Source of the DNA: Protoeuglena noctilucae
Taxonomy: Eukaryota
Assembly: GCA_958009085.1 (NCBI GenBank)
Contig: OY253673.1
Coordinates: 930,001-994,000, forward strand
Reading direction: 5' to 3'
Length of the DNA stretch: 64,000 bases
The notes beneath the pieces were generated by a model that searched no databases, was not told where the DNA came from, and saw only the letters and a list, made by a program, of their open reading frames with translations. Both the position numbers and the translations under genes were made by a program. The stretch's first letter is position 1. Every line of letters begins with the position of its first letter. Shown one piece after another: positions 104 to 57,056 of the stretch.

Positions 104-2928
104 GACATGGACGAGTGGCTGTACGGTGCCAGCTGGGTGGCGGGCACGATCGCCACGCTGGCGGCGGGGAGCGAGGTGGCGGCGCGGACGTTCGTGGGCC
201 TCCCGGACTTCTCATCCATGGCGCGGACCCTAGTGACGCTGATAAAGGTGCGGATAGAACAGTGACATGGTGTCGTGGGTGTTCCCGCTGGCATCTGTGT
301 GCTTTCTGTGTAGAGGGTAGAGGTTGGCGCGAGCGTGTGAGAGCTGCGCGTGAGAGCGGTTCCGTCTGACCCGCGGCCGCCCCTGTGTTTGCGTCAGGTG
401 GAGGAGGTGCAGAGTGCGGCGGCGGCCTGCCTGGGTATGCTGCACAAGTACGCCCCCGTCGTGGGGGAGCTGCTGCGGGAGGCGGTGGCGGAGAGGAGTG
501 ACGGGGTGTCGCTGGGGCTGCTGGAGAGCGCAGGTGAAGAGAGTGGGGGCAGTGCGCTTGGTTTCTGTCCATTGCTCGTGCACGCGCCGTCTCTCGTGCC
601 CTGAAGTGCTCTCACCCGTGTCAGGGCTTTCCCCTCCCGTGCTGCTCTGTCCTGGATATCTGAGCAACACTCACTGTCTCACCACCACCCGCGTGTCCCT
701 GGGACCCTCGCAGGCATGGCCCTGGATGCTTTGGACGCCCAGCTGCGCTCACTGACCCTGGCGGAGAAGCGGACGTGGCTGTCCACACGCATCCAGCAGG
801 AGCTCAAGCCATTCGCACCGGGGATCGCGCTGGAGGGCGTGATGGGTGAGGGCGCGGCACGCGTACATGTCAAAAGCCCATGAGCGGTGCTGGTGGTGGT
901 GCGAGAGGGCGTCAGGTGGTGATCCAGATGTGGACCCTCAAAGGCTGCATGGTCCCTCACATATTGCAGGGCCTTGGACTCTCAAAACGCACACCCGCTC
1001 GCCCCGCGTGCAGGTCCCGCGAGCATCACGTGCGCCAGGGACCACGTGGCGGAGGGCCTGTGCCAGATGATGGTTGAGGGGCGCGGCCTGGCGCAGGACC
1101 TGAGGGGCGGCCTGGAGGTGGTCTTCGAGGGGGAGACGGGGCAGGGCGCCGCGGTGCTGCGGGAGTGGTTCGCCCTCATCGCCCAAGACCTGGCACGGCC
1201 GGAGCTGAACCTCCTCACCAGCCGCAACGGCGGGCAGAGCTTCCAGCCGGCCGGCTTTGCCTCGGACGCCGCCGACCCCGCTATCCTTGGTGAGAGAAGG
1301 GCGAGGTGCTTTGCACGGCGCTTTATGAGTGGGCAAGGGTGCACTGGTCATGCCTGCTTGCCTCACTCGCCTGTTGCGCATCCCCCCCACAACCGCTACC
1401 GAGCCCATTCGCCCTGGCTTTCTCAGCAATAGAGTACTCTGCCTGTACCGCAGACGTGTGGTATGAGATGCTGGGCCGTGCGGGGGGCGCAGCGCTTTTC
1501 CACGCCGTCCCCTTCAGCTGCACCCTCACGCACGGCACTCTGCGGTACCTCCTCGGTCGGGGCCCTTGTTTGGAGGATTTGAAGGAGGCCGACCCGGACA
1601 CTTACACCCACAAGGCGAGGGCACGAGGCTGCGTAGGGGAGGTGCTGGCCTGGCCTCCTGCAGAGCGCCACGGGTTGGCGGTGTAAAGGGCATTGGACTT
1701 GGGCATGCTGTCACGGCTTGGCCATGTAGGGGGCAGTTGCATGATGCATGGTTTCACGGCTGTATAGGGTTGTTGTCACCCGTACCCCCTTGTGTCATGT
1801 GCCCAGGTGCGCTATCTCCTGGACAACGCCATCGACGCCCTGTGCCTGGGGCTCACCTTCACGGACGTCGCTGACGATTCGGGGTTCTTCCGGGCACCGG
1901 GGGAGGAGGTGGAGCTGTGCGAGGGCGGGGCGAGCGTGGACGTCACAGGTGACACCGCAGCAAGTGCTTTGAGGCATTGCCATACGGGCTGTCAGTCGAT
2001 GGACGATGTAATCGTTAGCAGTACGAGGACATCTCGTCTCTTTACGTTCGCAGATGCCAACAAGCACGAGTACGTGGAGCTGCTGGTGCGGTGGCGGCTG
2101 TGTGGGTCGGTGGAGCGCGCCTTAGGGTCCCTGCGCCGCGGGGTGGAGGCCGTCATCCCGGGCGCGGTGCTGCGGAGGTGCGGGGAGGTGCTGACGGTGG
2201 AGGAGTTTGCGGGGATGCTGTTTGGGGAGAGGGAGATTGACGTGGGGGACTGGCGGGCGCACGCCAAGGTGGAGGGGGAGACGCTCACCAAGGCGAGGCG
2301 GATGGGGTGTCGCTGTGGAGTGGCAGATGCCATTTCCAATGTGCGATGCCGCGCTCGGATGCTGCCCCTTTTTCTTCGCTCTTTGTGATGGATGCCAGCC
2401 TCGGCTGCTGCCTTTGTCTCTGCCCTTAGGAGTGACCTTACCCCGCCCCCACTGTCGCCTCGCACCCGTGCCTTGCAGAAGGAGGAGGGCCGGCAGGTGG
2501 TGGAGTGGTTCTGGGAAGTCGTGGAGGGGCTGCAGCAAGCGGACCGCCGTGCCCTGCTGCAGTTCGCCACCGCCTGCACCAACGTCCCGGTGGGTGGGTT
2601 CTCCCGGCTGCAGAGCGCCCACGGCACCTACCACCCCTTCACCGTGGGGGAGCTGTCCGGGCGGCAGGGCACCAACTCGCTCCCTCGCGCCGCCGCTTGC
2701 TTCAACACCATCTTCCTGCCCATCTACACCACCAAAGAGGAATTGGAGCAACAACTGAAGGTGGCCATCGGAATGGGCAAGGGCGTCATTGATGAGCAGG
2801 CGATGGTCATCGGGACCCGGAGTGCGCGGGAGGCGGGGGCGAGGGGCACGCGGGAGGGAGCGGAGGGGGCAGAGGCGGGGGATGGTACGGGCGTCGGGAC
2901 GACGGGCACAGCGCCGGGCCTGTCATAG
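104..2928 (+). CDS. HECT-domain E3 ubiquitin ligase (multi-exon, 5' end probably upstream of the window)
   Basis: Spliced exons give HECT motifs LEVVFEGETGQGAAVLREWF, ANKHEYVELLVRWRL, EIDVGDWRAH, VVEWFWEVV, LLQFATAC and the catalytic Cys region LPRAAACFNTIFLPIYTTKEELEQQL; stop TAG at 2926-2928. Confidence 0.9.
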
Positions 2929-3155
2929 CCCCATTGGGCCCCGGCTGTTGCGGATGCATGTCGCGTTTCATTTGCCACCGCGCAAGGTCGCGGCACCCCA
3001 CATGCCTGCATGCACTTGCCTGCCCATTTCCACCGCATCCCTTGTGCATTTTCATGACTAGGCGCGTCGCTGGCACCTCTCCACTGTCGCATGCCCAATG
3101 CTATCGATGCCAAAAAAGCGCTCTTTCTTTTAAACGCTGGCAGTCAGACCAGGCA

Positions 3156-4992
3156 TCATGCCCCTTGCTGTGCCCCCTCGCCAGCCCGGCTGAGCGCAGC
3201 GGCCACGTCCACAGCCGCCCTCAGCAGCGCCTCGTCAGACCCCTTGGGGCCCACGAGACTCAGCCCTACGGGCAGCCACGCGCCCTCCGCCTCCTCGGGA
3301 ACAGAAGCCGCAGGGATGGACACTTGGGGCAAGCCGCACAGCCCCGCCACGCACGTCAGCGACAGCGCTCGCCTGCGGAAATCCTCCAGGTCCGCGCCCG
3401 GCAGACCCCGCCGCGGCGCCGGCTCAGGTGCGGTCGGAATAACCATCACTGCGCCCTGGCCCAGGATGGACGCCACCCGAGCCTCGACCTGAGGATGCAG
3501 GGGCATGTCAGGTGCTAAGTGAGTACCAGCACTGGCCCTGCTACGCCCCCGCTCTCCCTGCTACCCTCCAACGCACCCTGCCCCACCCGTTGCTACTCCA
3601 CCGCACAGCACTAGACCGTCCCACCTGTTGCCGCACGCCCTGCGCCCGCTCCGCCTCCGCCTCTGTGACTTGAGACGCCATCTCAAACCGCTCCTTAATG
3701 CCCGGCCCGAACTGCGGCCGCTGCTGCGTTACCCAATCCCCGTGGTTGGTCCACACCTCCCGTGCCTGAAGGACTCTGAAGGAGTCCAGCCACTCTGGCG
3801 CTGTGCCTACCCCGCCTGGGTCCCCCACATCCACCGCCCGTGGCTCTGAGCCCAGGAGCGACTCTGACCCCCGCAGTCGATCCAACAAGACGTGAGAAAG
3901 GGCGTACCCGGTGGTGGGGCTCGCCAGATCCCAGAGGTCGACGGGGAACACCCAGGACGTGAGCGGCGTTTTGCTGCCTGGGGCCGACCGGGCCAGTAAC
4001 GCCGACCCCACGCGCTCCAAAGTGACTGCGTCCCTCGCGAACCACCCCACGGTGTCAAACGACTGCGGGGGTGGCGGGGAGGGATCCACGTCGCGCTGTC
4101 GAGGTGCACTGGAGCTGCAAGCACGCATGTTCGGCTCACACGCCTTTCGTCACTCTCACCTGCGCGAGGGGCCTCGCCCCAGTCAGTGGGATGCGGCCCC
4201 AGGTGGTGCGAATGCCAAAGAGTCCGCAGTGGCTGGCGGGGACGCGCACCGACCCTGCCGTGTCCGAACCTAGGGCGAAATCCACCTCCCCGCTCTGCAC
4301 TGCGACGGCGCGTGCATCGGGGCGCTGTGAAGGCTCGGGAACGAAGAGGCCCAGAGGCCCAGAGGCCCAGACAGCAGCAGTGGCTAATCTTGGCAGCACC
4401 GCACGGCAGCGGGGACTGCGCTTGTGACCAGTCGCCTGCAGCCTCACCGGCAGCCGCAGAGCCGGAGCTCGATCCTCCCGGCACTCGGCCCGGGGCGCGG
4501 ATGTTGGGGGGCGTGCCGTACCACCGATTCTCCCCGTTAAGCGAGTATGCTAACTCGTCCATCTGCACCTTGCCCATCAGGCGAGCACCCGACTCCAGGC
4601 ACCACTGCAGCGGACAGGGGAGGGTGCGTCCCAAGGGCGGGGGTGGCGCTGCGTCCGCCCCGCCAACGCGGCTGGACACTCGCCTGCACCACGGGGGCAG
4701 TCGTGTCGGGTACTGGATGTGAGTCACGCCACTGGGGGTTCCCAAACCCCGTCGCCTGGCCCGCCACGTCGAACAGGTCTTTCACGGCGAAGGTAGCTCC
4801 CCGCAGTGGCCCCGTTTCCGATCCCGGTACCTCGACTCGAGGCTCGACCCACACGGTCTTATCTTGGAAGGCCGATGTCGACGTGAGGCGAGCCCTGCTC
4901 CGCAACCCTTGCAGCACCGCGTGCGCGCCGCTGAGGCGAAATCGGGATCTCAGAGCGTGCCTGTGCCACAGCATCTTGATATTGGAAGCCAT
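3156..4992 (-). CDS. Amidase-signature family protein (AMI1/Toc64 amidase-like)
   Basis: GPLRGATFAVKDLFDVAG, MDELAYSLNGEN, PGGSSSGSAAA, DFALGSDTAGSVRVPASHCGLFGIRTT, GLCGLPQVSIP; start codon uncertain (4974, 4992 or 5004). Confidence 0.9.
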
Positions 4993-5345: not shown

Positions 5346-6932
5346 ATGGCAGCGGTGTTGGTCGTGGGCCTGGCGGGTCGCCAGCGCCATCTGAGGGGAG
5401 GCCAGCCGCTACAACCGTGGGGACCGATGGTCGCTAGCCGGTCGACGCGGCGCGTACCCTCGCTTTCCGTGGCCAGTGAGTGGCACAGCTCCGCGTGGTC
5501 GTTTGGAGGCGTACAGGCAGCGATCTGCCTGATGCGCGCCTCCCCCGCGGTCTTTATTGTCGATCATAGGAACTGCGCGAGATGATAGTGGCATCGGGGC
5601 GGTCAGCGGCCGCATCCACTCCCTCGCTCTGCGCCATTGATAGTTTCGCGATTTCCGCCGCACGTCTCTGTTCCCGTGTCGCGCCAGCAGGGTCGACGAC
5701 GTACAGCAGGGACTTCACTTCCGCGCCGCGTCTCATCCAGCACAAGAACGAGGCGTTCTGGTTCTACCGCTTCCTCAGCATCGTCTACGACAAGGTGGGC
5801 GGGCCGCGGCGCGCGCGCGCCACCCGCACGGCCACCCCTATCGACGCCTCGACATCCACTCGCCACCTTTGACGCCGCAGATCGTCAACCCGGGCCACTG
5901 GACGGAGGACATGCGGGAGGACGCGCTGTCGGTGGCGAGGCTCGACTCCCCGGACCTGAAGGTCTGCGACGTGGGCGGGGGCACGGGGTTCTGCACGCAG
6001 GGCATCGTGAAGGCGGGCGTGCGCCCGGAGAACATCACGTTGTTAGACCAGTCCCCGCACCAGCTGGCCAAGGCCCGGGGCAAGGCGGACCTGGCGGGCG
6101 TGGAGACCGTCGTGGGCGACGCGGAGGACCTGCCCTTCGAGACGGACGCCTACGATCGGTACGTGTCCGCGGGGAGCATCGAGTACTGGCCCGAGCCGCA
6201 GAGGGGCATCTGCGAGGCCTACCGAGTCATCAAGCCCGGTGAGGGCCTGGGGCAAAGGGTGCCTCTGCGATGGGCAGGGGTGGGCGTACCCAAGAGCTCT
6301 CAATGCCGTTGCGACTGGCTGCGTGGACGCCACCCCCCTGCTCATCTGCGCCTTGCTTTGCTCTGCGCAGGCGGCACTGCGTGCCTGATTGGCCCCGTGC
6401 ACCCCACGCACCCCGTCTCTCGGTTCTTCGCGGACGTGTGGATGCTCTTCCCGACCGAGGAGGAGTACATCGAGTGGTTCACCAAGGCGGGGTTTGAGAA
6501 CGTCCACGTCCACCGCATCGGGCCCAAGTGGTACCGGGGCGTCCGCCGCCACGGCCTCATCATGGGGTGCTCGGTCGTCGGGACGAAGCCCAAGGCACGC
6601 GGCGACGCCCGGATGCACATGCGCACGCACATGCTCACGCACGCTCACATGCACGAACGCACACACGCATGCACGCACACACACACGCCAGCCCCCTCTG
6701 CTCTTGGGAAGCACAACAGGAGCTTTCTCCTCCCCCGCGTCGCCCGCAGCCCGGCCCTTCGCCCCTGAAGCTGCCCGCCACGTCTGAGAGGTCCGGGGCG
6801 ATGAACACCAACCCCCTGGCCTTCCTCCTCCGCCTCCTGCTCGGCACGGCGGCCGGGTTCTACTACTTCGTCCTCCCCATCTACATGTACCTCAAGAACC
6901 TCGTGTGGCCCAAGAACGCGCCCGGCTTCTGA
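5346..6932 (+). CDS. VTE3: MPBQ/MSBQ methyltransferase (plastoquinone/tocopherol synthesis), plastid-targeted
   Basis: PRLIQHKNEAFWFYRFLSIVYDK|IVNPGHWTEDMR, DVGGGTGF, YVSAGSIEYWPEPQRGI, IGPKWYRGVRRHGLIMGCSV and C-terminal TM FLLRLLLGTAAGFYYFVLPIYMYLK match plant APG1/VTE3. Confidence 0.93.
6614..6688 (+). repeat. Intronic GCAC/ACAC low-complexity microsatellite
   Basis: Run of gcacatgcgcacgcacatgctcacgcacgc...cacacacacgc inside the last VTE3 intron. Confidence 0.7.
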
Positions 6933-9744: not shown

Positions 9745-12700
9745 GGCACTGAGCATGCGGAAGCAACGCATCGGGGCGTGCACGGCGCTGCGCTAGACTG
9801 CTCCGGACCAGCCAATGCGGCCCCTCAGGCCGGGCGCGTACCATCACGCAATGGCGGCAGGGTCGTGGCCCCCGACAAGACAGGGCCGCCATCCGGCTTG
9901 GGCACGGACCCGTGTCCGCCAGCGCCGACTGCCACGGTCCCCCGCCCCGGCGTCCCCGTGCCGGCCGCTCCCCCCCGGCGCCCCCCCTCCCGCGAGGCCT
10001 TCGTCAGCCTCTACTTCCGCCGCATGGTCCCTCCCTGGGGCCTCGCATGCCAGCGCTCCCGGCAGTCGGAGGCGCCGTGCCCCGGTCGCATGGAGATCAA
10101 CAGTGCCGCGGACGGCCGCCGCCTGTGGCTCTGCTCGCATAGGTGGCACGGCTGCCGCTGCCGGTGGTCGCCTCCCGAACCCGTCCTCTCCCCCGCTCTG
10201 CGGTGAGTGTGCCCGTGACCTGCCTCTCGCCGCCGGCAGCAGGAGCGGTGGCTGCCTGTTGGCCTACCCCGTTGCACTGACGGTCTCTGTGGCTGCGCCT
10301 GCAGACTTGAGGCCATCGACCGAGACTCCTTCCGCATATCCGTGACGCTGGCCTCCGCGCTGTGGACCAAGGTGGCGTGCGGGGGCCTGCGCCGTGTGCT
10401 GCAGGACCTGGGGCTGGCTGCGCACGTGCTCAGCGAGGCGACACCTGCACAAGCCGGACCAGGCAGCGTCCTGGGGCCTGCGGAGACAGGTGGCGCGCAA
10501 GGGGAGAGTGCGGGCGCGGTGGCGGACGTGGAGTCATCCGGGGCCGCTGCGTCGGGACCCCCCGAGACATGCCCCGTGGTCCCTGAGTCAGTGGTAGTGC
10601 CCATGGGGTCATACCCGGAGGTGGTGGACCGCTTACGCCGCGCCAAGGTGCTGGACCGAGTCGCGGCGGAGATCCCCGCGGGAGTGCTGATGAGCCTGCA
10701 GGGACGCACGCCCCGGGAGGGCGAGGGCGAGGTCGCGTCCCGGCTGGCGCGGGTGCCACAGGCGCTGCGGGCCCGGCTGCTGCCCTTCCAAGTGGACGCC
10801 GTCCGCTTCGGCCTCAAGCGTGGCGGGCGCGTGCTGCTGGCGGACGAGATGGGCGTGGGCAAGTCGGTGCAGGCACTCGCCATAGCCACGTGCTACCGGG
10901 ACCAGTGGCCGCTGCTGGTCGTCGCACCCGCGGCGCTGCGGCTCGTGTGGGTGGAGCAAATTGAGGTCTGGCTGCCGGGAGTCAGGTGGGCAGCCGCGCG
11001 CCGTCTGTGGAGCCCGCAGACACCGACCGATCCAAAGCGACCCTGAGGCAGCGACCCTTGCCGCGCAGGCCAGCGGACGTGTCGGTGGTGGAGTCGTCCG
11101 GGGACGCCCCCTGGCTCATTCCGTCGTCCCGCGCACGGCCTCCCGTCACGGTCGCTTCCTACGACATGCTGGCCCGGCTCAGCTGCCACGCATGCCGTGC
11201 CGCGCTGCAGGGGCAGGGGCCGAGGGGGCCGGAGGCGTCACGGTGCAGGGCATCGGGACGGTGCATGGCGGGCGGCGGGTGGGGCGTGGTCATTGCGGAC
11301 GAAAGCCACTGCCTGCGCGCCTGCCAGCACGGCGACGGCCCTGACAAGACGGTGGCAGCCCTCAACGTCATCCGCCGCGCCCACCGGGCGGTGCTCCTCT
11401 CGGGCACGCCCAGCCTCTCCAAGCCCTTTGACCTCTTCTCGCAAGTGGACGCCCTCGTCCCGCGCCTCCTCGGAGCCAAGGACGCCTTTGGGCGACGCTA
11501 CTGCCTCCGGGAGGCGCCCCCCACTGCGGGGCCGTCTGGCCGCCAGCCGTGGCCGCCGGGCCCGCGGTTCACTTCTGGGCGGCACCTGCACGAGCTGCAC
11601 GCGCTGCTGAGGCGGGAGGCGAGCGCTGCTTGTGCTGCCGCATGCTCTGCCCCTTGCTGCCGTAGACACCCATGCTTAAGCACTCACTCAGACCGTTGCA
11701 CACCCCCGCACGTGTCTGGCGCAGGTGATGATTCGGCGACTGAAGGCCGAGGTGCTGTCGCAGCTGCCGCCGATGGCGCGTCACGTGGTGCGACTGCCCC
11801 CGCCCTCCCCCACCGACTGGCCGGGCAGCCGCGGGGTGCCGCTGATTGGCGACGCGGCGGATGCGGACTCGCTCGCGGACGCGGACCCCGTGGCGCGCGG
11901 GGGGGTCGAGGAGGGCGCGCCGATGGGCCAGCAGCAGCGTGTGGGGATTGCGAAGGTGCGGGAGGCGGCGCGGTGGCTGTGGGCGAGGCTGGGGGTGCGG
12001 ACGGAGGGGGACGAGGGGTCGCCGGGGGAGGTGGAGGACGGGGACGGCGCGGGAGATGGGGAGGAGGGCACCCAGGCAAGCGTGGGGTCGCAGGGTGCTT
12101 GGTGCTGCGTGGGTGGGTGAGAGAACGTTGTGCTGAGAGGTGGGCTGTGTGCAGCAACAACATTCGTTGCGCCGTCGCAGGGGTCGTTTGGGTGCGCCAA
12201 CTCCGCCCTGGGTTGCGTGCCGCGCACGGTGATCTTTGCCCACCACCGCTTGGTGATGGATGCGTGGGACGCGGAGATCCGCAGAGCGGCGCGGGAGATG
12301 GCACCGCGGGCGGGCGTGGAGCCCAAGGCGAGATTTGGCGTTTGTGACTTGCCTGGCATGTAGTGACGCAGAGCCCTGCATGCTTCACACACAGCAATGC
12401 CCCCTGCCCCACCCGACCGCAGATGATCCGGATCGATGGTTCCACGGACAGCCGCGAGCGCTTCGAGTCCTGCCAGCTCTTCAACACCCGCGACGAGTAC
12501 CGCTTTGCCCTCATCTCGCTCACCGCGGGGGGCGTCGGCATCGACCTCAGTCAGGCCGCGGAGGTGGTGTTTGCCGAGCTGCCCGTGGAGGCGGGGTGGG
12601 TCCAGCAGGCGGAGGGGCGGGCGCACCGACGGGGCGGGCAGGCGAACGGAGTGGCAGGTGAGGCAGCGGACGGCTGAGTCAGACCCAGGTGCCCCTTTGC

Positions 12701-42456: not shown

Positions 42457-44069
42457 ATGGGTCGTGACTGCTTGAGCTCTGCGGGCAGAATTTGCAGCAT
42501 GCAGCAGGCCCTGGCAGCCCGTTCTCCTCACGGCACCACGGCCGTCTTTCTTTGCAGAGCCTGCGCCAGCGCGGCTGCTGGCTTGCTGCTGCTTGCCGTC
42601 TTTCTGGGGTGCCATTGGGTCACGGCGGAACAGGGTGAGGAGGCGCAAGCGCTCTACCTTGCACTCACGCGATCACACATGCATGTAGCTCTTGCTCTCA
42701 CAGCTGGCTGATTGGAGAATCGGCGCTTGGTTTGGCAGCGCCCTTTGGCACAGGATCGCCCAGCGGCGTGAGTCAGGGCCCCGCTCTTGCAAGTGCTGAG
42801 CCCATCCCGCGAGTCACGGAGGACGCCTCCCGTGCGGGGCGCGTCGGCGGGATGCGGGGCGCCGGCAATCTGGATCGTGGGACGACCGACGTGAGGGCGC
42901 GATGCGTTCCCGCGATGGCACCGCCGTTTCCGTGCTCCAAGTCGCGATTGGGTGTTCGGACACTCGTGGTTGCGGTGGGGACCGATGACTTGACAGGTGG
43001 TATCACGGTGTCCCATGCTGGACACGCAACGCCCCCTCTGCGCCTGCCCACAGCATAACAGCATGGGGTCCTCTTTCCTGCACGCCCTGGCCATGATTCT
43101 CGTGTCCGAGGCAGGCGATGAGACGTTCATCATCGCAGCCGTGCTTGCCATGCGCAACCCGAAGGCGGGTCCGTCGCGGCGCTGCTCTGGGAAGGACACG
43201 AACGCAAAGCTGCCGTCACTTGCGGCCTGCAACATGCGATCGCTGGCATCGCCGAGAGAATCGAACATGTTCGTTGGTGTTGCCTCCGCCGCAGAGCCTC
43301 GTGTTCGCTGGTGCCCTGGGCGCCCTCATCCTCATGACCATCATCTCCACCGCCATGGGCGTCATCGTCCCCACCCTCGTGTCGCCGAGCCTCACCAAGC
43401 GCGCCGCCACCGTCCTCTACCTCATCTTCGCGGGACGTCTCTTCTGGATCGCCTACCACTCCAAGAACACCGTCGAGGAGGAGATACAGGAGGTAAGGGC
43501 AGTGCAGGGATACAGGAGGTGAGGGCAGTGTAGGTGCTGCGTCTCCTGAGCGAGGACGCACGTCCTGCTTCATGGGCCTTTCGCCACGGACTCCGCAGAC
43601 GGAGGAGAGACTCGCCAGCGACGCACCCGTGGAGGGGTACGGGGCCCGTGCCGCGGCGCTCCTCTCGCGCGTCTTCCAGCCCATCGTGGGGGAGTCGCTG
43701 GTGCTGACCTTCCTAGCCGAGTGGGGCGACCGCTCCCAGATCGCCACCATCACCATGGCTGCGGAGAGGGACCCCGTCATGGTCACGCTCAGGGCCATCC
43801 TCGGTCACGCCATCTGGTGAGGGGCCGGGTTATGCCAGGCCCGGCGCGTCCCGCGTGTGTACTCAGCAGGCACGGTCTCAGCGACCAACCCGCAACTTTC
43901 ACGCAGCACGGGGGCAGCTGTCATCGGCGGGGAGCTTTTGGCAAAGAAGATCAGCCAGCGCACCGTGGCAGTGGCGGGCGGGTGTCTCTTCCTACTCTTC
44001 GCGGTCTTCAACCTCACGTCGCCGCTGCCAGCGCTAGCCCCCGCACAGCAATGTCCTGGGACAGACTGA
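42457..44069 (+). CDS. GDT1: GDT1/TMEM165 (UPF0016) Mn2+/Ca2+ transporter with signal peptide
   Basis: Two UPF0016 motifs: ILVSEAGDETFIIAAVLAMRNPK and LTFLAEWGDRSQIATI; GHAIC-like segment and AVIGGELLAKKISQRTV. Confidence 0.9.
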
Positions 44070-47200: not shown

Positions 47201-49750
47201 CTCGTAGCCATGCAGTTCCATGGCAGGCGGCAGCCCAGGCAGTCCACGACCTGTGAGGGAGGGCGGTGGGGCCAGGCGTGCCTTGCTCGCGTTGCCAGCT
47301 CGCCCCTGAGCTACTCCGGCCAGCATGCAGCTACCGTGCCACTGCCGCCCGTGCCGCGCTTCTCACCACAGCGTTCGACGCCCTGACGCCGTCCTCGTGG
47401 AAGCCGTACCCACCCCATGCGCCGCAGAAGTACACACCTCCTGAAGCTCAAGCCACAAGCATAGGAGTGAGTTTGAGCGCAGACAAACACAGAGTGCTTG
47501 GAAAAGCAGGCTTAACTAGCCGGTGCGTGTACCACGCCTGGACATGCCGCCCTCGCCTGTCCCCTGGATCTCCGGAAGTCTGTGCTGTGCAGCAACGCTG
47601 GCCTGAGAGAAGACGGGGTGGTCCAGGGACAGCCTCCGGATCACGGAGGATGGCGTTGGCTCGTGAATGGGGTTGAGCGTCACGAACAGGTCGGGTGCAT
47701 CCGCGGGGAGGTTCTGGAGGCGGTTGAGCCAGTACGTCACGCACACAGCGCTGTCGGCTGAGCCGCCTGCGTGGAGGTGCAGGAGGTGTCACATCATCCA
47801 GCCAGGACATCTGTGTCAGTCGACCACTGCGTGCACGGCCCATGTCATGGACGCCGAGGTATTGGAAGTGCCCCTGACTCCCTTCAGCAACCTGCACCAG
47901 TCAGCCGCCCTCACCGCGCTTCCCGAGGAAGTTCCACGACGTCCAGCACTGCCGGCGTCGGGGCATGAGACTGGCATCCGTGTGAAGCCAGACGCCGTTC
48001 GAGTTGTAGGGGATGGCGCCCAGTACCTCCCGCTCGGCATCCGTGGCCCCACTTCCCAGGAGCTGCAGCGTCACGTCCGAGTGGGTCGCCATGACAACTG
48101 CGTAGGGACGGGTCAGGACTGTCTTGCCCCAGTTGCTACAGGTGTCACCGCGTCTATCAGCAGACACACACGTCTCAACGTTCCCGGCTGCGTTGGTGTG
48201 CAGCAACCCAGGCGACCCCAGGTCACACTCACCCGCATCAAAGGCGGACTTCTTCCCATCTGCCGTCTCGATCTCGACGCCCCCCTCGCGCGGCCCCAGC
48301 TCGCGAGAGCGGCGGGTGATGCGCACGACCGCCTGCCCCGCCCGGACGTCGTGCACGTGCGCGAGCACGGCCTTCACATAGGCCTGCGATCTGCCCTTGA
48401 CCACGCGCCACAAGGGCCGATCAAAGACGTCCAGGAGGTGGTGGTTGACCCAGAACCGCACGAGCATCTTGACGGGGAAGCCCAGCACGGTCGCGCTGGG
48501 GACGCTCCACACGGCCGCGCACATGGGCAGCACGTAGTGCTCCTTGAACGCCGCCGAGTAGTTGTGGCGGGTAAGGTACTCCCCCAAAGTCACGCTCTCG
48601 TACTCGTGGGCCATGGCGCCTTCCAAGACCTGGGAGGGACGGGGGGACAGGGGCAGGGGTAGTGGGGCAGCGATGGGCCGGGAGACCCAGGGGAGCCACC
48701 GGGTGCCGGGTTCAGATGGGAGGAGCTTGGGCAAATCATCACCCGCGGCGCCTCTCTGCCGAACCGGAGGACCTCGTACAGCATCATCAGGAAGGAAGGG
48801 CTCGTGCAGTTGGACGCCTGGGCGAACAGGGCGCTGCTGGACCACTCGAACGATCCGCCGTCCATCGAGAGCGAGAAGGACATGTCCGACTCCTCTGCAG
48901 GGTGCCGCGCAGAGGTGGCGAGTGACGCCCTGCCAGGCCTGCCTGCCCATCCATGGCAAGACATGCGCAAGGCTGGGCTCCGGGCGCGGGCGACCTCCCC
49001 CACCTGACTCGACTCCAAGCTCCTCGAGCATCCCGACGAGGTTTGGGTACGTCGTGAGGTTGAATACCTGAAAGCCCAGGTCGACAGGCCATCCGGACGT
49101 CTCATCTGCGCGCAGGGAGCCGATGCTGCAGCGATTCGGCGTCTCGGTCGCCGCTCAGATACAGCAACAATAGCAGGGTGTGCACACGCGCGGCCCGAAG
49201 TCGCAGGGCGTCCCCGCGCACCCGTGAGTGTGTGCCCGCCACACCGCGCCTCCCGCTCGAAGAGGGTCACGCGAGCGCCATTCCTGCAGGCCGGGGTGGG
49301 CAAAGAGCTTTCGTGTGTGCAGAAAGGCCCATGCGATGGGTGCGGGAGGATTTGTCTTGTGGCCGCCCGCGTTCCACTTCAGCTGTGCCGAACGCCGCGC
49401 ATGCGCCGCGGCGGCCCACCCAGCCAGCCAAATTGCCGCATTCAGAGCCATCACATCGACGTCAGGACATAAGAACCAATCAGCCAGCGGAAACCCCGGG
49501 CGACGCACCGCGCGGGCGCGGTGAGGGCGCTGCCCTGAGGCCCAGGAGTGACCCTGCCCGGCGGGAACCTCGCGAGGCTCGGGGTATGCGCGGCTGCTGC
49601 ACCCATCACATAGTATTTTAAGCATTTTCTCAGCTATTGGAGTCGGAGAGAGGGTCGCCCGCGGGAAGCTCACCGCGACAGGACGTACGCCGCACTCAGC
49701 CCGCTGATTCCCGACCCAATGACGGCGATGGGCCTCCCATCGACGTTCAT
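44270..49750 (-). CDS. Cyclopropane-fatty-acyl-phospholipid synthase, plant type: N-terminal FAD amine-oxidase-like domain + SAM methyltransferase + C-terminal multi-TM domain
   Basis: IAVIGSGISGLSAAYVL, FEREARCGGHT, DLGFQVFNLTTYPNL, CVTYWLNRLQ, YFCGAWGGYGFHEDG; then ENSRKNIEEHYDAGNDMY, VLEIGCGWG, CEMIEAVGHEY, DFIREHIFPGGHLPS, YFAYCEAAF; then hydrophobic exons down to the stop at 44270-44272. Confidence 0.9.
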
Positions 49751-50012: not shown

Positions 50013-51783
50013 CTATGCGAGGGCCTCCGCAGCGATCTTCTTCAGCTGCTCGAGCGTGAGAAACATGACCGTGTTCCACGCCGCCAGGCGCCCGAAGTTG
50101 GGCACGAACCCCTTGTACAGCCCAGCCACCCCCGCATCCCGAAGCGTCTTGACGAAGCAGTCGACGACCCCCTTGTACTGGCCCTCCTTGTCCCCCATGA
50201 TGCGGGACTTGACCACGTCCACGGGGGACCCCACGCACACGGCGCAGAAGCCCGCCCCCACCGCCGACGCCACGTGGCAAAGCGGGCCGTCCTGTGCACA
50301 GGCGTGGCGAAGGCGTGGCGGGTGACAGTGGGGGGCATGCACATGCGCAGCCAGACAAGACGCGGCCTGGCACACGAAGGCTCGCCTGCATGCCGCTCGC
50401 AAGCAGCGCCTCCTTAATCTGGTCGTACGACGCAAGCTCGGCCGCATTGATGATGGCGTTGCGGGCCACGTTGGGCCCGAGGCCCGTCCACAGGCCCGCC
50501 ACGCCCTCCTCGCGCATGATGATGCCGTACGCCTTCATGGCCGACGGGTACCGCTTGGGGGCGTCCTTGCCCATCCGCCCCTGCGCCTGCATTCGCACCT
50601 TGACGAGATCCGTGGGGTTGGCCACTGCGCGGGGGGGCGACGTGCTTCACGCGTCAGGCCAGGTCGGCAGGCGGTCCACGGGCCCAGCTGGAGATCGGGA
50701 GGCCTGTGGGATCGCACGGGCTTCCCTTCTTGGGACGGCCGCCGCTTGTGACCTACCCGCGATCGCGAACGCCCCCGTGGTGAGCGCGGCTGCGATCTTG
50801 ACCCCCAGAGAAGGCGCCCCTGGGGCATCCCCTTGGTAGAACTTCTTGATGGGGTCGTACATGCCGATCCGGAGACCTCCGTACAGACACTGCCGGTGCA
50901 AGCCGGGCCTGCAAGCGGAGCCACACACCTGGGCAGTGGGCATGAGCACCCATTAAACGGCAGGGTCCGGCAAGACCGCTGGCCGTGCAGGCGGGCCAGT
51001 CCCGCCTCTGCAACGGAGACCCAGCAGTCTCACGTGAGGCCCGACCACAATGCCGCGACGCCCTCCTCCCTCCCCACCGTCGCCATGGTCCCCAGCATGC
51101 CCTTGTACTTCAGGTTGGGGCCCGAGCCCCCTTGCAGCTGCAGCCGAACTTTGGCTGTGTCGATGGGTAGAGTGATAAACTGCGCGCGAGAGACGCCCCA
51201 TCACAGCATCGTCAGCGGGGCGCCCCTGGCCCCGCTGTCAGGTCACGAAACATGGCGCGCCGGGGGCCGAAACGCGCACACGCCGCGACGTGCGAGATCA
51301 CGACACGGATGCACACGTGCAGGCACTCGAGCACGCGGGGCAGGTCACGCAAGCACCGCGGGAGGACGGTGCCCCATCGTCCACGGGTGCCATCGTCCCG
51401 GTGCGCGAAATGGGGGAGTAACGAGGAATCGTTTCGACAGAGTGGCGTGACTGATCAGTGACACTCGCTGAAGAGGTCGAGCTGGGCGAACAGTCAGGCG
51501 CGGCATCGGAAAAGGCCCCGACAGAGCATCCCGTGGGTGAATGGCGGGCAGTGCCCGGGCAGTCGACAATCCCGGACGTCATGCAGCCGATGGGCAGGTG
51601 TGAGTAAAAATCACAGCGTGTCAAGGTGGGACGCGGCCGTCGTCGCGCAGGAGAGGCGAGACAGACCAGGAAAAGCTGTGGGTACGCCCGTCTCACCTCG
51701 GCCCAACACGCCGCGGTGGCTGACACGGGGAATAACGCCCAGGCGGGAAGGACCGCCGGAGTCTTGCTATCGCTGCCCACCAT
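50013..51783 (-). CDS. UCP1: Mitochondrial uncoupling protein (plant UCP/PUMP)
   Basis: [117 protein letters not shown]. Confidence 0.95.
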
Positions 51784-52201: not shown

Positions 52202-55200
52202 ATGGACGGGGACGCCATGGAGGCCGACGGAGACTCCGACGTGATCCTTGCAGCGCACTTTCGGAGGGGCGCACTTGGTATCGCGTTGTACGACCTCGGG
52301 AGCGGGTCTCTGGAAGTGCTGCAGGTGCACAACGTCGTGCTCGACCCCTCCCAGTACGCCTTGCAAGCGCTGCAGTCCATCAAAGCCTCGCGGCGGCCCC
52401 GGGTGAGACGAGCCGCGTTTCGAGGCGGCTGCGTATAGACGGGAAGGGTTTTAAGGTCTTTGTGGGTGGATGGATGCCGTAGCCCCTTGCGAGCTTGCAT
52501 GCCGTCCGCCAAGCGCAGGTGCTGTTCACGAGCGCCGGCTCCTCGACCGCGTTCTTGCAAGCGTTGCGGCAGCCATGCGCGGGGCGTGCGGGCGATTACG
52601 ACGTCAAGGTGATGCACCGCAGCAGGGGGACAGGGGATGGGACAAAGCAGGAGATGAGCAGCGGCTAGCTAGCTCATATGCATGCGAGGCACGGATACGG
52701 TCGTGTGCAGGTCGAGAAGGCCGGTGTCTTCAAATACGAAAATGCACTGGCGCGGTGCAAGGCGCTGACGGTGCAGGGGCTTCCTCTCCACCTCTCGCCG
52801 AGGGATCGCTGGGCTCAGCTTCAGACCATGTGCAACTTGCGGGGCGAGGAGCTTATCTGCGGTGAGACCTAGGGTAAACGGAGCTACCCGACACCGGTAC
52901 GGCGGAAAGTAGCACATTGCAAGGTGTGGACGAGCATTGGCACTGCAGCCACTTCTGCGCCCATGCATGCAGCTCTCGGTGGGCTCCTCGGCATCCTGCA
53001 GAGAGAGGGAATATTGACTGGCGGTGACACACCACAGGCGCCAGCGACGGTGGCATCTTTGTCGGAGATTCAAATGGAGTCCCACCTGGCGGTCGACATG
53101 GACAGCTTGCACGTAAGTTGGCTCTCTGACCAGAATGGAATAGCTCAAAAGCGCATTGTTAAGCTGGAAGAGGAGGGCCGACACTGGCAACTGGCCCCTG
53201 TACTGCACAGGGGCTATCGATATTTCAACACGAAAGCCACCCATCCCTTATGGGGATCGGCTCGTCTAAGGAGGGTTTCTCGCTGTTCGGCTTCATGAAC
53301 AAGTGCGTGACGCCGATGGGTCGTGCTCTTCTTCGGCAGCGCTTCACCATGCCTTCGCGAGACCTGAGGGTCATCAACGCTCGCCTCGACGCGGTGGAGC
53401 TGCTGATGCGGGAGCCAGAGGCGCTGCTTGCTTTCCAGAAGATCATGCGTGGAGTACGGGACGTGGGCCACATCATGAGCAGGTCATTGGTGGGATGCGG
53501 ACAGGGAGCAGGCGATGGGGCCACAACCGCCTGGGCCATCATGCGAACACCATCTGATGACCTGTGCGCAGGCTGCAACTTTCGGACGGAGCCTGCAGCC
53601 CAGGTGATCTCCTTTCGATTGCCAGCAGTCTTGGGTTCGTCGTACAGCTGCATCAGCTCACAATCGGCATTGCAAGCGAAGCTCCAGGCGCAAAGGCTTA
53701 CCTCGGATCCCTACCCCGCAACGTTAGCAGGTGAGAATGGTAGAACCTGCGTCGCGTACCTTCTACTCCAGCTCGAAGAACGGGCTGGATTGATTGTCTA
53801 CTACTTGGTCACGATCGTGCAACTGCAGATCTGTTGGTGACTACTCCAGCGTCCGCAGCCTGCCTGTGCGCTCCCTCTTCGAGTGCGAGGTGCGCTGAAG
53901 TGCTTCGTGCAATGGCCAGCGAAAATTTGCTTACACAGTAGCCCATTTCAAAAGATGTGATCTTTGTCACCCTCACAGGACTCCATGGATGGGCTATGCC
54001 AGAACACTGCCGACGGAACGCCGGGTGCCCGGCCACGCGACGCAGAGATGGGGCCTAACGGAGGGTTCAGCCCCAGTGCGCCCACGGTCCTCTCGGACGA
54101 AATCTCTGCCTGGGGCTCGCCGGCGCTAAAGGAGGCCAGAGCCCTCATCGCTCGTGTGATAGACGTTTCTCAAGACACGCAGGACGCTTGTGTTGCACAT
54201 GGAGTCTCACAGGTACGTTCTCTGCGGCTAAAACATCCATGTCGGTCGGCGCCATTGCTGTTTCGTCCTTGCAGACGGTGCTGTGTTGTACGATTCCTAA
54301 CACCTGTCTGACGCAAGCAGGAGCTGGATCAGCTTAAGAAGCTGTGGATGGAGCTCCCTGACATCCTGACGCGTGTGGCACAGTACGAGCTCGGTCGTGT
54401 ACCTGAGGCAAGTCATGTTTGGGGTTGCTGGCAGCATCCTGTTAGCATCTTTGGAGCGACGCTGTTGCCCAGGCCTTTAAGACTTCACTGCTGGGTAACT
54501 TCGATGCAGAGCATACGAAGGGGAGTGCGTGAGCAAGTCTGGCAAGTGGAGTACCTTCCATCGCTGGGGTACGTGGTGGTTGTATATGGCAAGACGATGA
54601 GCCCCGAGGCAAGTCATGCTTGGACAGGGACGGGACACCTGCGCAAGGCTCCAGTCAGAGAGGTCTGCAACGACCTCTCTGTGTCCCCCGCAGGTGCTGG
54701 AGTACCTTTCTGACTGGGAGTTCCTGTTTGACAATCAGACGGATGAGGGCGTCCCAACATCGTTTTTCAAAAGCAATGAGACAGGTGAGTAGCGATGCGA
54801 CCGTGCCTCGTCACGGTGCCAATGGAGGTGTGCTGACCTCACCCTCATTTCGCACCTCCAGCTCGACTGACAGCTTTGTACGGCGACGTGCTTCACAAGA
54901 TCACCGACCTGGAGTCTCAAATCGTGTTTGAGCTGATTCAAAAACTGGCGGGCTTCTTGCCCGCCTTCCTCACAGCCATGGCCTCTGTTGCGGAGCTGGA
55001 CTCACTCGTGTCGCTTGGTGAGTACACCTTATGCCGTTGCCGATGTATGATGCAAAGGGAGGGTTGTTCACAATCCCACTACTGTCGTCACCTTGCGCTC
55101 CTGCAGCCCTGTCTGCGCTTGAGTTCGGCCTTGTGCGACCCAAGGTCGTGTCCGAGTCTGTTCTGCATGTGAGGGACGGGTGGCACATGCTCGGCAAGCT

Positions 55201-57056
55201 TGCGCAGGAGTCCTTCGTGACGAATGATACGCACATGAGCGAGCGCAACGGCCGTGTAATGGTGGTGAATGGGCCCAACGCGTCGGGCAAGTCTGTGTAC
55301 CTCAAGCAAGTGGCCATCATCGCGTTCTTGGGTGAGGAGTGCGTGCTGCATGTCGTGTTGGTACCTCTGCCATTGTTTCCCCAGCGATGCAGGGCCCCGC
55401 TTCCAGGCTGGCTGCCAGTCTTCGTGTCGTTGCATCGACATTGCCATGGACAGCTTAAGTTGACTTCGCGGAGGTACGTGGTACGCAGCACACGTGGGCA
55501 GCTTCGTGCCAGCAGCGGAGGCCACAATCGGAGTCGCAGACCGTCTCATGACGCGCCTCTTCCACCTCGACTCTGTCGGGGGCAACAATTCCTCCTTCAT
55601 GTCTGATCTCAGCCAGGTGGGGTTTTGTGCAATGTTGAATCCGCCTCATCCGCCAAAAAGGGCCACTGTCCCAGCCCCTTGGCCTTTCAGGTCGTGGCCA
55701 TGGTCCGGATGGCATCAGGCTCCTCTTCGCTGATTATCGACGAGTTTGGAAAGGGTACACTGGCTGCGGACGGGGTGGGACTCTTGCCGGCAGTCGTGAA
55801 TCACTTTGCAAACAGTGCAGCATCTCCCCGGGCCGTGTTCGCCACGCACTTCAGCGAGCTTCAAAGCTCTCGCCACGTCCCTGTGCGTGATGCGGTGTCC
55901 TTCTACACCATGAGGTGAGGCTCAGTCCCGAAACATGCGTGAGCTTGAAAATGGACTGGATGCCTTGCACGTCCTGCCTTTGCCTTTTACTGCTGCAGCG
56001 CTCTGATTGATCAGCCATCGACTGAGTCCGTCACAAACGGGAGCGCTGGCAGGCAGACACAACCGGAACCTGACGCACGCCCTGGAAACAACATTGTGTT
56101 CTTGTACAAGCTTACGCCCGGACGCCCTGCCCTGTCCTTCGGAGTCCACGTGGCGAGGCTCTGCGGCGTGGAAGAGGGTGTCTTGCTGCGGGCACACGAG
56201 GTGGTGGACGCCCAGGCAAGTGTCGTGCCCAGGCTCTCGCGGTGTGAGAGAGTCGTGTATCTCGCTGCTTTGCCGAGAACCAGTGCTCAGTGTTTATGCA
56301 TCCGCAGCAGCATGGCACTCAAATTGGACGCCGCGCAACCCCTTACACGATCAGGCGCGATGCTTTTGCAAAGGCTGCCACGGCCCTTCTGCACAGCGTC
56401 CATGTACACTCCGCGGATCTCGACACCGTCAGCATGACCGTCAGAGAGCTCCACCGGCAGTGCCTAGGTGCAGGTGCAGGTGGTGCCGCCTCTGATGGAC
56501 CGGCTCCGGCGAGGGAAACTGAGGGGCGCCCGTCTCGCCTGTCGACAGCACGCTGGACCTCCGCATGATAAGCAGGCAACCTACCAGCAACTTGGAAATG
56601 CAGAGGGGCGAGGTAAGACCAAATGCGAATCACACATTAGGCTAAGCTTGATTGATCTGGCTACAAACTCTCAAGTCCCTGTCCTTCTCAGAAGACGAAT
56701 ATGCGCAACTACAGAGGAAGGCTGTGGGGCAGACGCTGGCCAAGACGTGCCTGGAAAGCCTCGACCCAATTACTTCCATGTTTGCGGAGGGTTCCGGAGG
56801 ACAGGTCGCAGAAGCCACGACGCAGACCGCAAGGGAGACGGAGACACCGGGGAAGCAGACGCACCGCGGGTCTGACTCGAGGGGCGAAGGGGAGCTCAAC
56901 GTCGGCAATCGGGCCTTCAAAGACATTTCCCCTGCCACCGTCGATGTCGAGCAGGGTGGGGCACAAGAGGGGCTTATGGGTCCCAACAAGAGATCCCGCT
57001 GGGCTGAACCCGAGACACGACCCAAAGGGCTTTTGGACGCAACAGGCAGCGAATAG
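52202..57056 (+). CDS. MSH5: MutS homolog 5 (meiotic crossover protein)
   Basis: IFQHESHPSLMGIGSSKEGFSLFGFMNKCVTPMGR (MSH5-typical), NGPNASGKSVYLKQVA, AHVGSFVPA, SSFMSDLSQV, IIDEFGKGTLAADGVGLL, SFGVHVARLCGV. Confidence 0.92.

What the first reader, a model, noticed from the sequence alone, without database searches (positions are those of the whole stretch)
1615..56216. Unusually frequent GC-AG introns across the window (consensus AG|GCRAG)
Seen: reading frames are restored by GC donors at (+) 1615, 2293 (HECT), 6595 (VTE3), 11619, 12076, 12328 (ZRANB3), 17130, 18460, 19119 (METK), 24412, 25517, 27007 (kinesin), 32364, 32926, 33667 (PPIL2), 43165 (GDT1), 54408, 54609, 56216 (MSH5) and (-) 4683 (amidase), 28609 (TMEM53), 47556 (CFA), 50385 (UCP1). 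Examples: GTKPK|PGPSPL, KLTE|VRKNG, AKNIQ|NKPK, MRNPK|SLVF. A few (e.g. 2293) have a weaker alternative GT. All but one follow an exonic AG; the exception at 33667 (AA|GCGAGT) has a perfect +3..+6 match. That is 23 of roughly 150 introns by eye. Established: GC-AG introns are about 1% in most eukaryotes. Inference: this lineage has a relaxed or re-tuned 5' splice-site recognition system, possibly driven by GC pressure and compensated by exon-side pairing.
Basis: partly seen in the sequence, partly recalled or inferred. Interest (0 to 1): 0.78.

Follow-up and report, generated by a model that had tools for sequence, protein, structure and literature searches.

The report
Frequent GC-AG introns, GC-rich green alga
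About one intron in five in this stretch of a GC-rich green-algal genome starts with GC instead of the usual GT; the effect is real, but it has been reported since 2011 in other GC-rich algae, so here it is another example.

Summary
All 23 sites carry GC, and 22 of 23 follow an exonic AG.

- **RNA or transcript proof:** eight are proven. RNA contigs from two studies cover 6595, 17130, 18460, 19119 and 4683. A transcript-derived kinesin protein maps exactly and covers 24412, 25517 and 27007.
- **Homologue support:** gap-free homologue alignments support 32364, 32926, 33667, 54408 and 54609.
- **Pfam support:** domain continuity supports 1615, 2293, 12328, 43165 and 50385.
- **Refuted:** none.

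Share of GC donors:
- 8 of 36 verified introns (22%);
- about 26 of 136 in my curated models;
- 18 of 126 from my own gene finder even with a 1% prior.

These are U2-type introns. GC donors occur almost only where −2, −1, +3, +4 and +5 are all consensus (AG|GCRAG). In that context 7 of 12 verified donors have C at +2, against 1 of 24 elsewhere.

High GC-AG shares in GC-rich algae are already in print: Micromonas pusilla 22%, Chlorella 7.7%, Aureococcus 14-40%, Emiliania 56%. A re-tuned spliceosome could not be tested and is not needed to explain the data. Verdict: a new member of a known kind.

The parts
1615..1806 (+). GC-AG intron in HECT-domain gene (aag|GCGAGG)
   Evidence: Predicted by my gene finder. 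The HECT profile runs on across the flanking exons, 39-89 then 138-207 with a 47-aa exon between. In-frame GT alternatives at +18 and +27 are weak.
2293..2478 (+). GC-AG intron in HECT-domain gene (aag|GCGAGG)
   Evidence: Gene finder. HECT profile 138-207 is followed by 213-302. An in-frame GT at -24 (aag|GTGGAG) is not excluded.
4605..4683 (-). GC-AG intron in amidase gene (cag|GCGAGT)
   Evidence: The X3 and X2 contigs of 1792 nt have a piece at 4684-5118 equal to record positions 1358-1792. Exon lengths sum exactly to 1792 only with this intron removed (sum done by hand). The Amidase profile runs 40-82 then 90-137. The junction reads ...TAPVVQ|WCLESG.
6595..6749 (+). GC-AG intron in VTE3-like methyltransferase gene (aag|GCACGC)
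   Evidence: RNA joint in X2, X3 and X5. The only canonical-type cut is GC..AG.
11619..11724 (+). probable GC-AG intron in SNF2/HNH (ZRANB3-like) gene (gag|GCGAGC)
   Evidence: Gene finder. There is no in-frame GT within 60 nt. The next exon starts at SNF2 profile 216-240, but only at E 0.13.
12076..12180 (+). probable GC-AG intron, same gene (cag|GCAAGC)
   Evidence: Gene finder and frame only. No homology evidence was obtained.
12328..12422 (+). GC-AG intron, same gene (aag|GCGAGA)
   Evidence: Gene finder. The downstream exon matches Helicase_C 44-110, which leaves about 43 profile positions for the 49-aa upstream exon.
17130..17225 (+). GC-AG intron 1 of S-adenosylmethionine synthetase gene (gag|GCGAGG)
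   Evidence: An X5 contig joins 17129 to 17939 through 9 letters that lie at 17226-17234, between ...CGCAG and GTGAGT.
17226..17234 (+). 9-nt micro-exon (Ser-Val-Asn) between a GC-AG and a GT-AG intron
   Evidence: (table 5c). It completes the N-terminal domain before profile position 11.
18460..18549 (+). GC-AG intron of S-adenosylmethionine synthetase gene (gag|GCGAGG)
   Evidence: RNA joint in X2, X3 and X5. Pfam profile 1-37 then 39-120.
19119..19233 (+). GC-AG intron of S-adenosylmethionine synthetase gene (cag|GCGAGG)
   Evidence: RNA joint in X2, X3 and X5. Pfam profile 1-104 then 107-138.
24412..24523 (+). GC-AG intron of kinesin-2 gene (cag|GCGAGG)
   Evidence: Exact mapping of the transcript-derived protein P0003. 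No GT..AG cut is compatible.
25517..25637 (+). GC-AG intron of kinesin-2 gene (cag|GCGAGG)
   Evidence: P0003 mapping. The kinesin profile ends at 327 of 327 at the exon end.
27007..27090 (+). GC-AG intron of kinesin-2 gene (cag|GCGAGG)
   Evidence: P0003 mapping.
28530..28609 (-). probable GC-AG intron in DUF829/TMEM53-like gene (aag|GCAAGG)
   Evidence: Gene finder. The downstream exon starts at DUF829 profile 19. The upstream frame ends ...IIFGWLGGRPRYLQK. The 30-aa upstream exon alone gave no Pfam hit.
   Evidence: Gene finder only. It matches AGGCGAG.
32364..32453 (+). GC-AG intron of PPIL2-like gene (aag|GCGAGC)
   Evidence: The junction ...LHFHK|NGDNE is gap-free against 8 full-length homologues.
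32926..33007 (+). GC-AG intron of PPIL2-like gene (aag|GCGAGG)
   Evidence: Gene finder. There is no gap at the junction, but the region is poorly conserved.
33667..33747 (+). GC-AG intron of PPIL2-like gene (caa|GCGAGT), the one donor without exonic AG
   Evidence: It gives [16 protein letters not shown], gap-free in 8 of 8 homologues. My gene finder chose another GC donor at 33685, which adds 6 residues seen in none of them.
43165..43294 (+). GC-AG intron of GDT1-family gene (aag|GCGGGT)
   Evidence: GDT1 profile 2-27 then 32-75; with the exon ends counted, this gives 29 followed by 30.
47441..47556 (-). probable GC-AG intron in oxidoreductase/cyclopropane-fatty-acid-synthase fusion gene (cag|GCGAGG)
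   Evidence: Gene finder and frame only. No family hit for the flanking exons.
50292..50385 (-). GC-AG intron of mitochondrial-carrier (UCP-like) gene (cag|GCGAGC)
   Evidence: Mito_carr repeat 24-93 of 96, then the next repeat from position 6.
54408..54509 (+). GC-AG intron of MSH5-like gene (gag|GCAAGT); 102 nt, in frame, without a stop
   Evidence: The closest full-length relative, P0167, lacks these 34 codons. The spacing between RVP and WQVEY is 10 aa against 11 aa.
54609..54693 (+). GC-AG intron of MSH5-like gene (gag|GCAAGT)
   Evidence: The junction ...MSPE|VLEYL matches P0167 ...MAPEVLECL without a gap.
56216..56307 (+). probable GC-AG intron of MSH5-like gene (cag|GCAAGT)
   Evidence: A frame change is required to reach the conserved C-terminal exon. 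This is the best-consensus donor, but in-frame GT donors at 56201, 56204, 56222 and 56225 are not excluded.

Best explanation
These are ordinary major-spliceosome (U2-type) introns in the nuclear genome of a GC-rich, intron-dense chlorophyte green alga. About one donor in five has C instead of T at position +2.

Inferred mechanism: GC-biased mutation or fixation turns GT donors into GC donors. The change is tolerated only where the rest of the 5' splice site already pairs fully with U1 and U6 (AG|GCRAG). The C:A mismatch at +2 then stays above a recognition threshold.

Shown here:
- the introns are removed from RNA;
- their share is about 20% in this window;
- GC donors are confined to full-consensus contexts.

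Inferred, not shown: that GC pressure is the cause, that the spliceosome is standard, and that the share holds genome-wide.
For: Removal from RNA: 8 of 36 RNA- or transcript-verified introns are GC-AG.

Share in the window:
- about 26 of 136 in curated models;
- 18 of 126 from my gene finder with a 1% prior on GC, and 31 of 138-145 after self-training;
- forbidding GC costs about 102 log-odds units and 8 verified introns.

Context dependence:
- Verified set: AG|G.RAG in 7 of 8 GC donors against 5 of 28 GT donors, p 0.0006.
- Curated set: with all five flank positions consensus, 21 of 38 donors have C at +2. This does not differ from C/(C+T) = 0.61 inside introns (binomial p 0.51). With fewer matches, 5 of 97 have C.

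Other points:
- No donor resembles the U12 type; all are GCGAG, GCAAG or similar.
- GC and GT introns do not differ in length (medians 102 and 105) or G+C (0.66 for both).
- The window is 59-71% G+C.
- Published parallels in GC-rich algae: Micromonas pusilla 22.2%, Chlorella sp. 7.7% and Aureococcus 39.6%, with consensus U1 5' ends (PMC3033335, passages); Aureococcus 14-17% and Pelagomonas about 14% (bioRxiv 10.1101/2024.10.30.620910, passage); Emiliania huxleyi 56% (PMC4028052, passages).
Against: - Only one 64-kb window was seen. No genome is held, so the genome-wide share is unknown.
- 28 of the 36 verified introns come from five genes, and I chose the kinesin because it carried claimed GC donors.
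- The curated set is biased.
- G+C alone does not predict the share. Micromonas RCC299 (64% G+C) has only 2.7%, so another factor must exist.
- The snRNAs and U1 proteins of this organism were not seen.
- Five claimed sites rest on frame and consensus only.
Confidence: 0.75

Rival explanations
1. Re-tuned machinery. The lineage has a changed 5' splice-site reader, such as a variant U1 snRNA 5' arm, base modification, U1-C or another U1 protein, or U6/U5 contacts. This change makes C at +2 as good as T, and the high GC-AG share follows from it rather than from mutation pressure alone.
For: - At full-consensus donors C is as common as neutral composition predicts (21 of 38), as if +2 were not read there.
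- G+C alone does not explain differences between close relatives: Micromonas pusilla 22% against RCC299 2.7%. The authors themselves suggest base modification or U1 proteins (PMC3033335, passage).
Against: - GC donors need stricter flanks than GT donors. That is the behaviour expected of a standard U1 with a mismatch at +2.
- The putative U1 5' ends of M. pusilla and Aureococcus are reported as consensus.
- Nothing in this window bears on the machinery; there is no Rfam hit.
Confidence: 0.15
2. Local or ascertainment fluke. The window happens to hold several GC-AG-rich genes, or some inferred GC donors are wrong. The genome-wide share would then be only a few percent.
For: - One window only.
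- Five claimed sites have no evidence beyond frame and consensus.
- My gene finder made at least six wrong or doubtful GC calls: 4755, 16133, 33685, 54135, 36948/37049 and 41652.
- 19 RNA joints were not shown.
Against: - Eight GC-AG introns in four unrelated genes are proven by RNA or transcript.
- The 23 claimed sites lie in 12 genes spread over 55 kb.
- Even a 1% prior leaves 18 of 126.
Confidence: 0.05
3. Mobile-element origin. The GC-AG introns are copies of an introner-like element that carries a GC donor. Intron-generating transposons are known in Micromonas pusilla and Aureococcus, the two algae with very high GC-AG shares.
For: - The two MSH5 donors begin with nearly the same 20 letters.
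- A relative's kinesin lacks all 12 downstream introns.
Against: - All-against-all BLAST of 151 intron sequences, each with 10-nt flanks, found no similarity apart from overlaps of alternative models of the same place.
- GC and GT introns have the same length and composition.
- The relative keeps only 5' introns. That pattern points to loss there rather than gain here (inference).
Confidence: 0.03

Closest known systems
Abundant GC-AG introns of GC-rich green algae: Micromonas pusilla CCMP1545 (22.2%) and Chlorella sp. (7.7%), Iwata & Gotoh 2011, BMC Genomics 12:45 (PMC3033335; passages read)
   Same: Chlorophyte nuclear genomes with about 66% G+C. Their GC-AG share is ten to twenty times the eukaryote average of 1.3%, with the AG acceptor unchanged.
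   Different: This genome is intron-dense, with about 136 introns in about 22 genes and 15 in one kinesin gene. No repeated intron family is present. From recall, M. pusilla is intron-poor and rich in introner elements. By protein identity the organism is nearer to core chlorophytes and pedinophytes (about 70-74%) than to Mamiellophyceae.
GC-AG-rich introns of non-green GC-rich algae: Aureococcus anophagefferens (39.6% in PMC3033335; 14-17% in bioRxiv 10.1101/2024.10.30.620910), Pelagomonas calceolata (about 14%), Emiliania huxleyi (56%, PMC4028052); passages read
   Same: A high G+C genome, many GC donors and a canonical AG acceptor. The authors attribute the trait to G+C content and note that GT-only gene predictors mis-model these genes.
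   Different: These are other eukaryotic supergroups. Pelagophytes have under one intron per gene. In E. huxleyi GC is the majority donor, whereas here it is a minority confined to perfect contexts.
Ordinary U2-type GC-AG introns of animals and plants (about 1%)
   Same: GC donors sit in a stronger flank consensus than GT donors. For mammals and plants this is recalled from Burset 2000 and Thanaraj & Clark 2001, which I did not read here; the separate clustering of GC-AG 5' sites in mammals is in PMC3033335. The rule is seen here.
   Different: The frequency is about twenty-fold higher. The local consensus is AG|GCGAG rather than AG|GCAAGT, in step with this alga's GT consensus AG|GTGAG.

Membership tests
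U2-type GC-AG spliceosomal introns | GC at intron positions +1 and +2, and AG at the 3' end | tested here: met
   All 23 sites carry GC. The acceptors of 8 are resolved from RNA or protein; the rest come from models.
U2-type GC-AG spliceosomal introns | The segment is absent from mature RNA at exactly these borders | tested here: met
   Met for 8 of 23: 6595, 17130, 18460, 19119 and 4683, and 24412, 25517 and 27007. The other 15 were not tested with RNA.
U2-type GC-AG spliceosomal introns | The 5' site resembles the major-type consensus (AG|GYRAG), not the U12 consensus (RTATCCTT) | tested here: met
   7 of 8 verified and 21 of 27 curated GC donors are AG|GCRAG, and none is ATCC-like. The U12 consensus is quoted from PMC2846911.
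U2-type GC-AG spliceosomal introns | Removed by the major spliceosome (U1, U2, U4, U5, U6) | not testable with these tools
   No snRNA gene lies in the window and no genome is held.
GC-rich algal genomes with abundant GC-AG introns | Genomic G+C of about 64% or more | tested here: met
   The window is 59-71% G+C per 4 kb. This was measured for the window only.
GC-rich algal genomes with abundant GC-AG introns | GC-AG share far above 1-2%, genome-wide | tested here: inconclusive
   The window gives 8 of 36 verified and about 26 of 136 curated. The genome-wide share could not be measured.
Introner-like (transposon-born) introns | Introns form families of similar sequence | tested here: not met
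   No cross-intron similarity in all-against-all BLAST of 151 intron sequences.

The most novel reading that the evidence does not exclude
In this alga, donor position +2 is selectively neutral between T and C whenever −2, −1, +3, +4 and +5 are all consensus. There C reaches 55-58%, close to the neutral C/(C+T) of 0.61. C is nearly forbidden otherwise, at about 5%.

This would be a sharp pairing-threshold rule for 5' splice-site recognition. It would be seen for the first time in an intron-dense chlorophyte free of introner elements. GC pressure alone would then set the GC-AG share, and that share could be predicted from the fraction of perfect-context donors.
Probability: 0.35. Interest if true: 0.5.

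Novelty: new member of a known kind. Interest (0 to 1): 0.3.

Why it matters
**Annotation.** A predictor that allows only GT-AG mis-models about one intron in five here. My GT-only run lost 8 of the 32 verified introns that were recovered with GC allowed. It also replaced the true start of the S-adenosylmethionine synthetase gene with a false one. The same problem was reported for Emiliania huxleyi.

**Evolution.** This is another case, in an intron-dense green alga, of GC pressure reshaping a core RNA-processing signal. The context rule (C at +2 only where all other pairing positions are consensus) gives a simple, testable model of how that happens. Iwata & Gotoh called the abundance of GC-AG introns in some algae an enigma, and this bears on that question.

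Tried and rejected
- **Whole genome:** none is held, so there is no genome-wide count and no snRNA search.
- **Rfam over the window:** no family matched, so no U1 or U6 is available here.
- **Earlier scan notes:** none for this genome. A word search returned only Ostreococcus intron notes, which have no bearing.
- **Protein Atlas for taxonomy:** uninformative.
- **Third homologue search (ZRANB3-like exon 4):** no hit at E ≤ 0.001 among 1580 candidates.
- **PDB search:** exon 3 matched Rad54-like only weakly, and exon 4 matched nothing at E ≤ 10.
- **NCBIfam and Pfam:** nothing for the exons flanking 47556 and 28609.
- **PPIL2:** no transcript-derived protein was found. The only 100% hit, P0121, is a gene call from the window itself and has no Pfam domain.
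- **Run X1:** it showed no joints. Its listed contigs run straight through introns, for example 7896-8321, 13824-14959 and 17959-18359. I read this as unspliced RNA or DNA carry-over and not as evidence on splicing.
- **Introner hypothesis:** rejected.
- **First gene-finder settings:** they chained the whole strand into one gene, with 619 introns. They were replaced by a length-penalised model.
- **Gene-finder GC calls overruled.** By RNA or homology: 4605-4755, 16085-16133, 33685-33747, 54135-54320 and 54408-54693. As shadow or merging artefacts: 4931-5847, 6135-6351, 28613-28978, 29862-30338 and 31169-31280.
- **Paper search on Chlorella, Micromonas and related names:** too loose to be useful.
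- **Pucker & Brockington 2018:** the passages I read gave no algal GC-AG figures.
- **Not seen:** Additional file 1 of PMC3033335 (per-species table) and the supplements of the bioRxiv preprint. They may hold further species values.

Full report
**What the window is.** It is nuclear DNA of 59-71% G+C, densely packed with short-intron genes. Best named protein relatives are core chlorophytes and a pedinophyte at about 70-74% identity: Pedinophyceae sp. YPF-701, Scenedesmus, Tetradesmus, Trebouxia and Tetraselmis. I therefore treat it as a chlorophyte green alga without a close named relative in the collections. No whole genome is held, and no Rfam family, hence no snRNA gene, lies in the window.

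**The sites.** All 23 coordinates carry GC. 22 of 23 follow an exonic AG, and 20 of 23 fit AG|GCRAG.

**RNA evidence.** One search found metatranscriptome runs that hold the exons of 11000-20999. I laid X1, X2, X3 (one study) and X5 (another study) on 1-20000.
- The tool showed 15 joints and withheld 19 more.
- After sliding each cut over its ambiguous letters, 12 joints fit only GT..AG and 3 fit only GC..AG: 6595-6749, 18460-18549 and 19119-19233. All three were seen in X2, X3 and X5.
- An X5 contig joins 17129 to 17939 through nine letters. Those letters lie at 17226-17234 between ...CGCAG and GTGAGT. Intron 1 of the S-adenosylmethionine synthetase gene is therefore GC-AG (17130-17225). It is followed by a 9-nt micro-exon and a 704-nt GT-AG intron.
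- For the amidase gene on the minus strand, the 1792-nt contigs of X2 and X3 have pieces at 2867-3486, 3623-4062 and 4684-5118.
- Their record positions and total length fit exactly if 3489-3624, 4063-4159, 4300-4447 and 4605-4683 are removed. The last of these has the claimed GC donor at 4683.
- The resulting protein junction also fits the Amidase profile.
- X1 gave no joints, and its contigs run through introns. I set it aside as unspliced material.

**Transcript-derived protein.** A search with one kinesin exon returned P0003. It is 735 aa, 100% identical over the query, and comes from a contig of 2515 nt. The gene spans about 3.9 kb in the window, so that contig must be spliced. P0003 maps letter for letter with 15 introns. 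For each junction I listed every cut that gives the same protein. Twelve include a GT..AG cut. Three (24412-24523, 25517-25637, 27007-27090) include only a GC..AG cut.

**Tally of verified introns.** 36 introns, 28 GT and 8 GC, or 22%.
- 18 rest on shown RNA joints or contiguous pieces (4 GC).
- 3 rest on contig arithmetic (1 GC).
- 15 rest on P0003 (3 GC).
- I chose the kinesin because it carried claimed sites, so this figure may lean high.

**Homology for further sites.**
- PPIL2-like gene: eight full-length homologues align without a gap across 32364 and 33667. They also do so across 32926, in a poorly conserved stretch.
The GC donor that my gene finder preferred, 33685, adds six residues seen in none.
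- MSH5-like gene: the closest full-length relative, P0167, lacks the 34 in-frame codons of 54408-54509 and reads straight across 54609.
- At 56216 a frame change is needed to reach a conserved C-terminal exon. The GC site has by far the best consensus, but four weaker GT donors also keep the frame.
- Exon-by-exon Pfam coordinates run on across 1615, 2293, 12328, 43165 and 50385, and across the RNA-proven sites, which serve as positive controls.
- Sites 11619, 12076, 28609 and 47556 have only frame, consensus and gene-finder support.

**Unbiased estimates.** I wrote a small exon-chaining gene finder. It uses a 3-periodic Markov coding score, shared flank matrices for GT and GC donors, and a prior on the GC class.
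- With a prior of 1% it used 18 GC donors among 126 introns in the first round.
- Self-training from priors of 0.01, 0.05 and 0.3 converged on 31-32 of 138-145.
- It found 19 of the 23 claimed sites on its own.
- With trained parameters, forbidding GC lowered the total score from 2657 to 2555. It cut recovery of verified introns from 32 to 24 of 36, and it replaced the true start of the S-adenosylmethionine synthetase gene by a false one.
- I then removed 17 gene-finder introns that were contradicted by RNA or homology, or that lay in shadow or merged models, and added 8. The curated set has 136 introns, 27 of them GC.
- One more gene-finder GC intron, 54135-54320, is really a GT intron from 54213 according to P0167. 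That leaves about 26 of 136 (19%). Two of these, 36948-37049 and 41432-41652, are doubtful.
- AGGCRAG occurs 44 times against 26.6 ± 5.4 in shuffles. Of the 24 occurrences in or at the end of sense-strand exons, 21 are inferred donors.

**Anatomy of the donors.**
- The alga's GT consensus is (C/A)AG|GTG(A/C)G, and GC donors are AG|GCGAG or GCAAG.
- Verified set: the full flank consensus occurs in 7 of 8 GC donors but 5 of 28 GT donors (p 0.0006). That set was not chosen by consensus.
- Put the other way, 7 of 12 perfect-context donors have C at +2, against 1 of 24 others.
- Curated set: 21 of 38 against 5 of 97. The 55% does not differ from the C/(C+T) of 0.61 inside introns.
- GC and GT introns do not differ in length or composition.
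- No intron family exists.

**Interpretation.** The simplest reading is standard U1 and U6 recognition with a pairing threshold. A C at +2 costs one base pair and is tolerated only where all other positions pair. Under GC-biased mutation or fixation, perfect-context donors then drift to the neutral C:T ratio. This is an inference. The machinery itself was not seen.

**What is known.**
[quoted passage not shown] Their figures are Aureococcus 39.6%, Micromonas pusilla 22.2% and Chlorella sp. 7.7%, against 1.3% overall.
- They also noted that Micromonas RCC299 has only 2.7%, that the putative U1 5' ends are consensus, and that the cause is 'an enigma'.
- A 2024 preprint gives 14-17% for Aureococcus and about 14% for Pelagomonas.
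- Emiliania huxleyi has 56% (PMC4028052).
- My searches found no report for an intron-dense core-chlorophyte-like alga. The trait as such is not new.

**Verdict.** The finding is a new member of a known kind and of modest interest. Its main uses are as a warning for annotation and as a clean case for the threshold rule.

Noticed in passing
window 17226-17234 (+): The S-adenosylmethionine synthetase gene has a 9-nt micro-exon (Ser-Val-Asn). It lies between a 96-nt GC-AG intron and a 704-nt GT-AG intron, by far the longest verified intron here. It is supported by one X5 contig and found independently by my gene finder.
   Followed up: partly
L002:3090-5725 (+) and L001: A GC-rich relative on metagenome contigs has the orthologous kinesin-2, 72% identical over 633 aa. 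It has only three introns, all GT-AG and all in the first ~100 codons, and none of the 12 downstream introns of the window's gene. Neighbouring ORFs of 922-1144 aa are also uninterrupted. Keeping only 5' introns suggests reverse-transcript-mediated intron loss in the relative.
   Followed up: partly
protein P0004: A second metatranscriptome protein is identical to the window's kinesin for about the first 315 residues and then diverges completely. It is either a chimeric assembly with a paralogous kinesin-2 subunit or an alternative form.
   Followed up: no
window 17138-17748 (+): RNA-library contigs of X1, X2 and X3 lie wholly inside the long intron 2 of the S-adenosylmethionine synthetase gene and run unspliced over the micro-exon (table 8). 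This could be pre-mRNA of a very highly expressed gene, or a separate transcript. No Rfam family matches there.
   Followed up: no
window 5271-8964: One X2 contig of 2793 nt runs from the plus-strand VTE3-like gene (GT..AG and GC..AG joints) straight into the convergent minus-strand kinase gene (CT..AC joints). The 3' ends of the two genes therefore overlap or abut.
   Followed up: no
window 54403-54425 and 54604-54626 (+): The two neighbouring MSH5 GC-AG introns begin with nearly the same letters for about 20 bases (..GAGGCAAGTCATG[T/C]TTGG..). BLAST found no wider similarity between them.
   Followed up: partly
window 3368-3374 (-), 34416-34422 (+), 41386-41392 (-): These are the only three AGGCRAG words inside sense-strand exons that are not inferred donors. 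Two of them lie in last exons. About 6-7 would be expected from the shuffle rate over 32 kb of exon. The numbers are too small to call this avoidance.
   Followed up: partly
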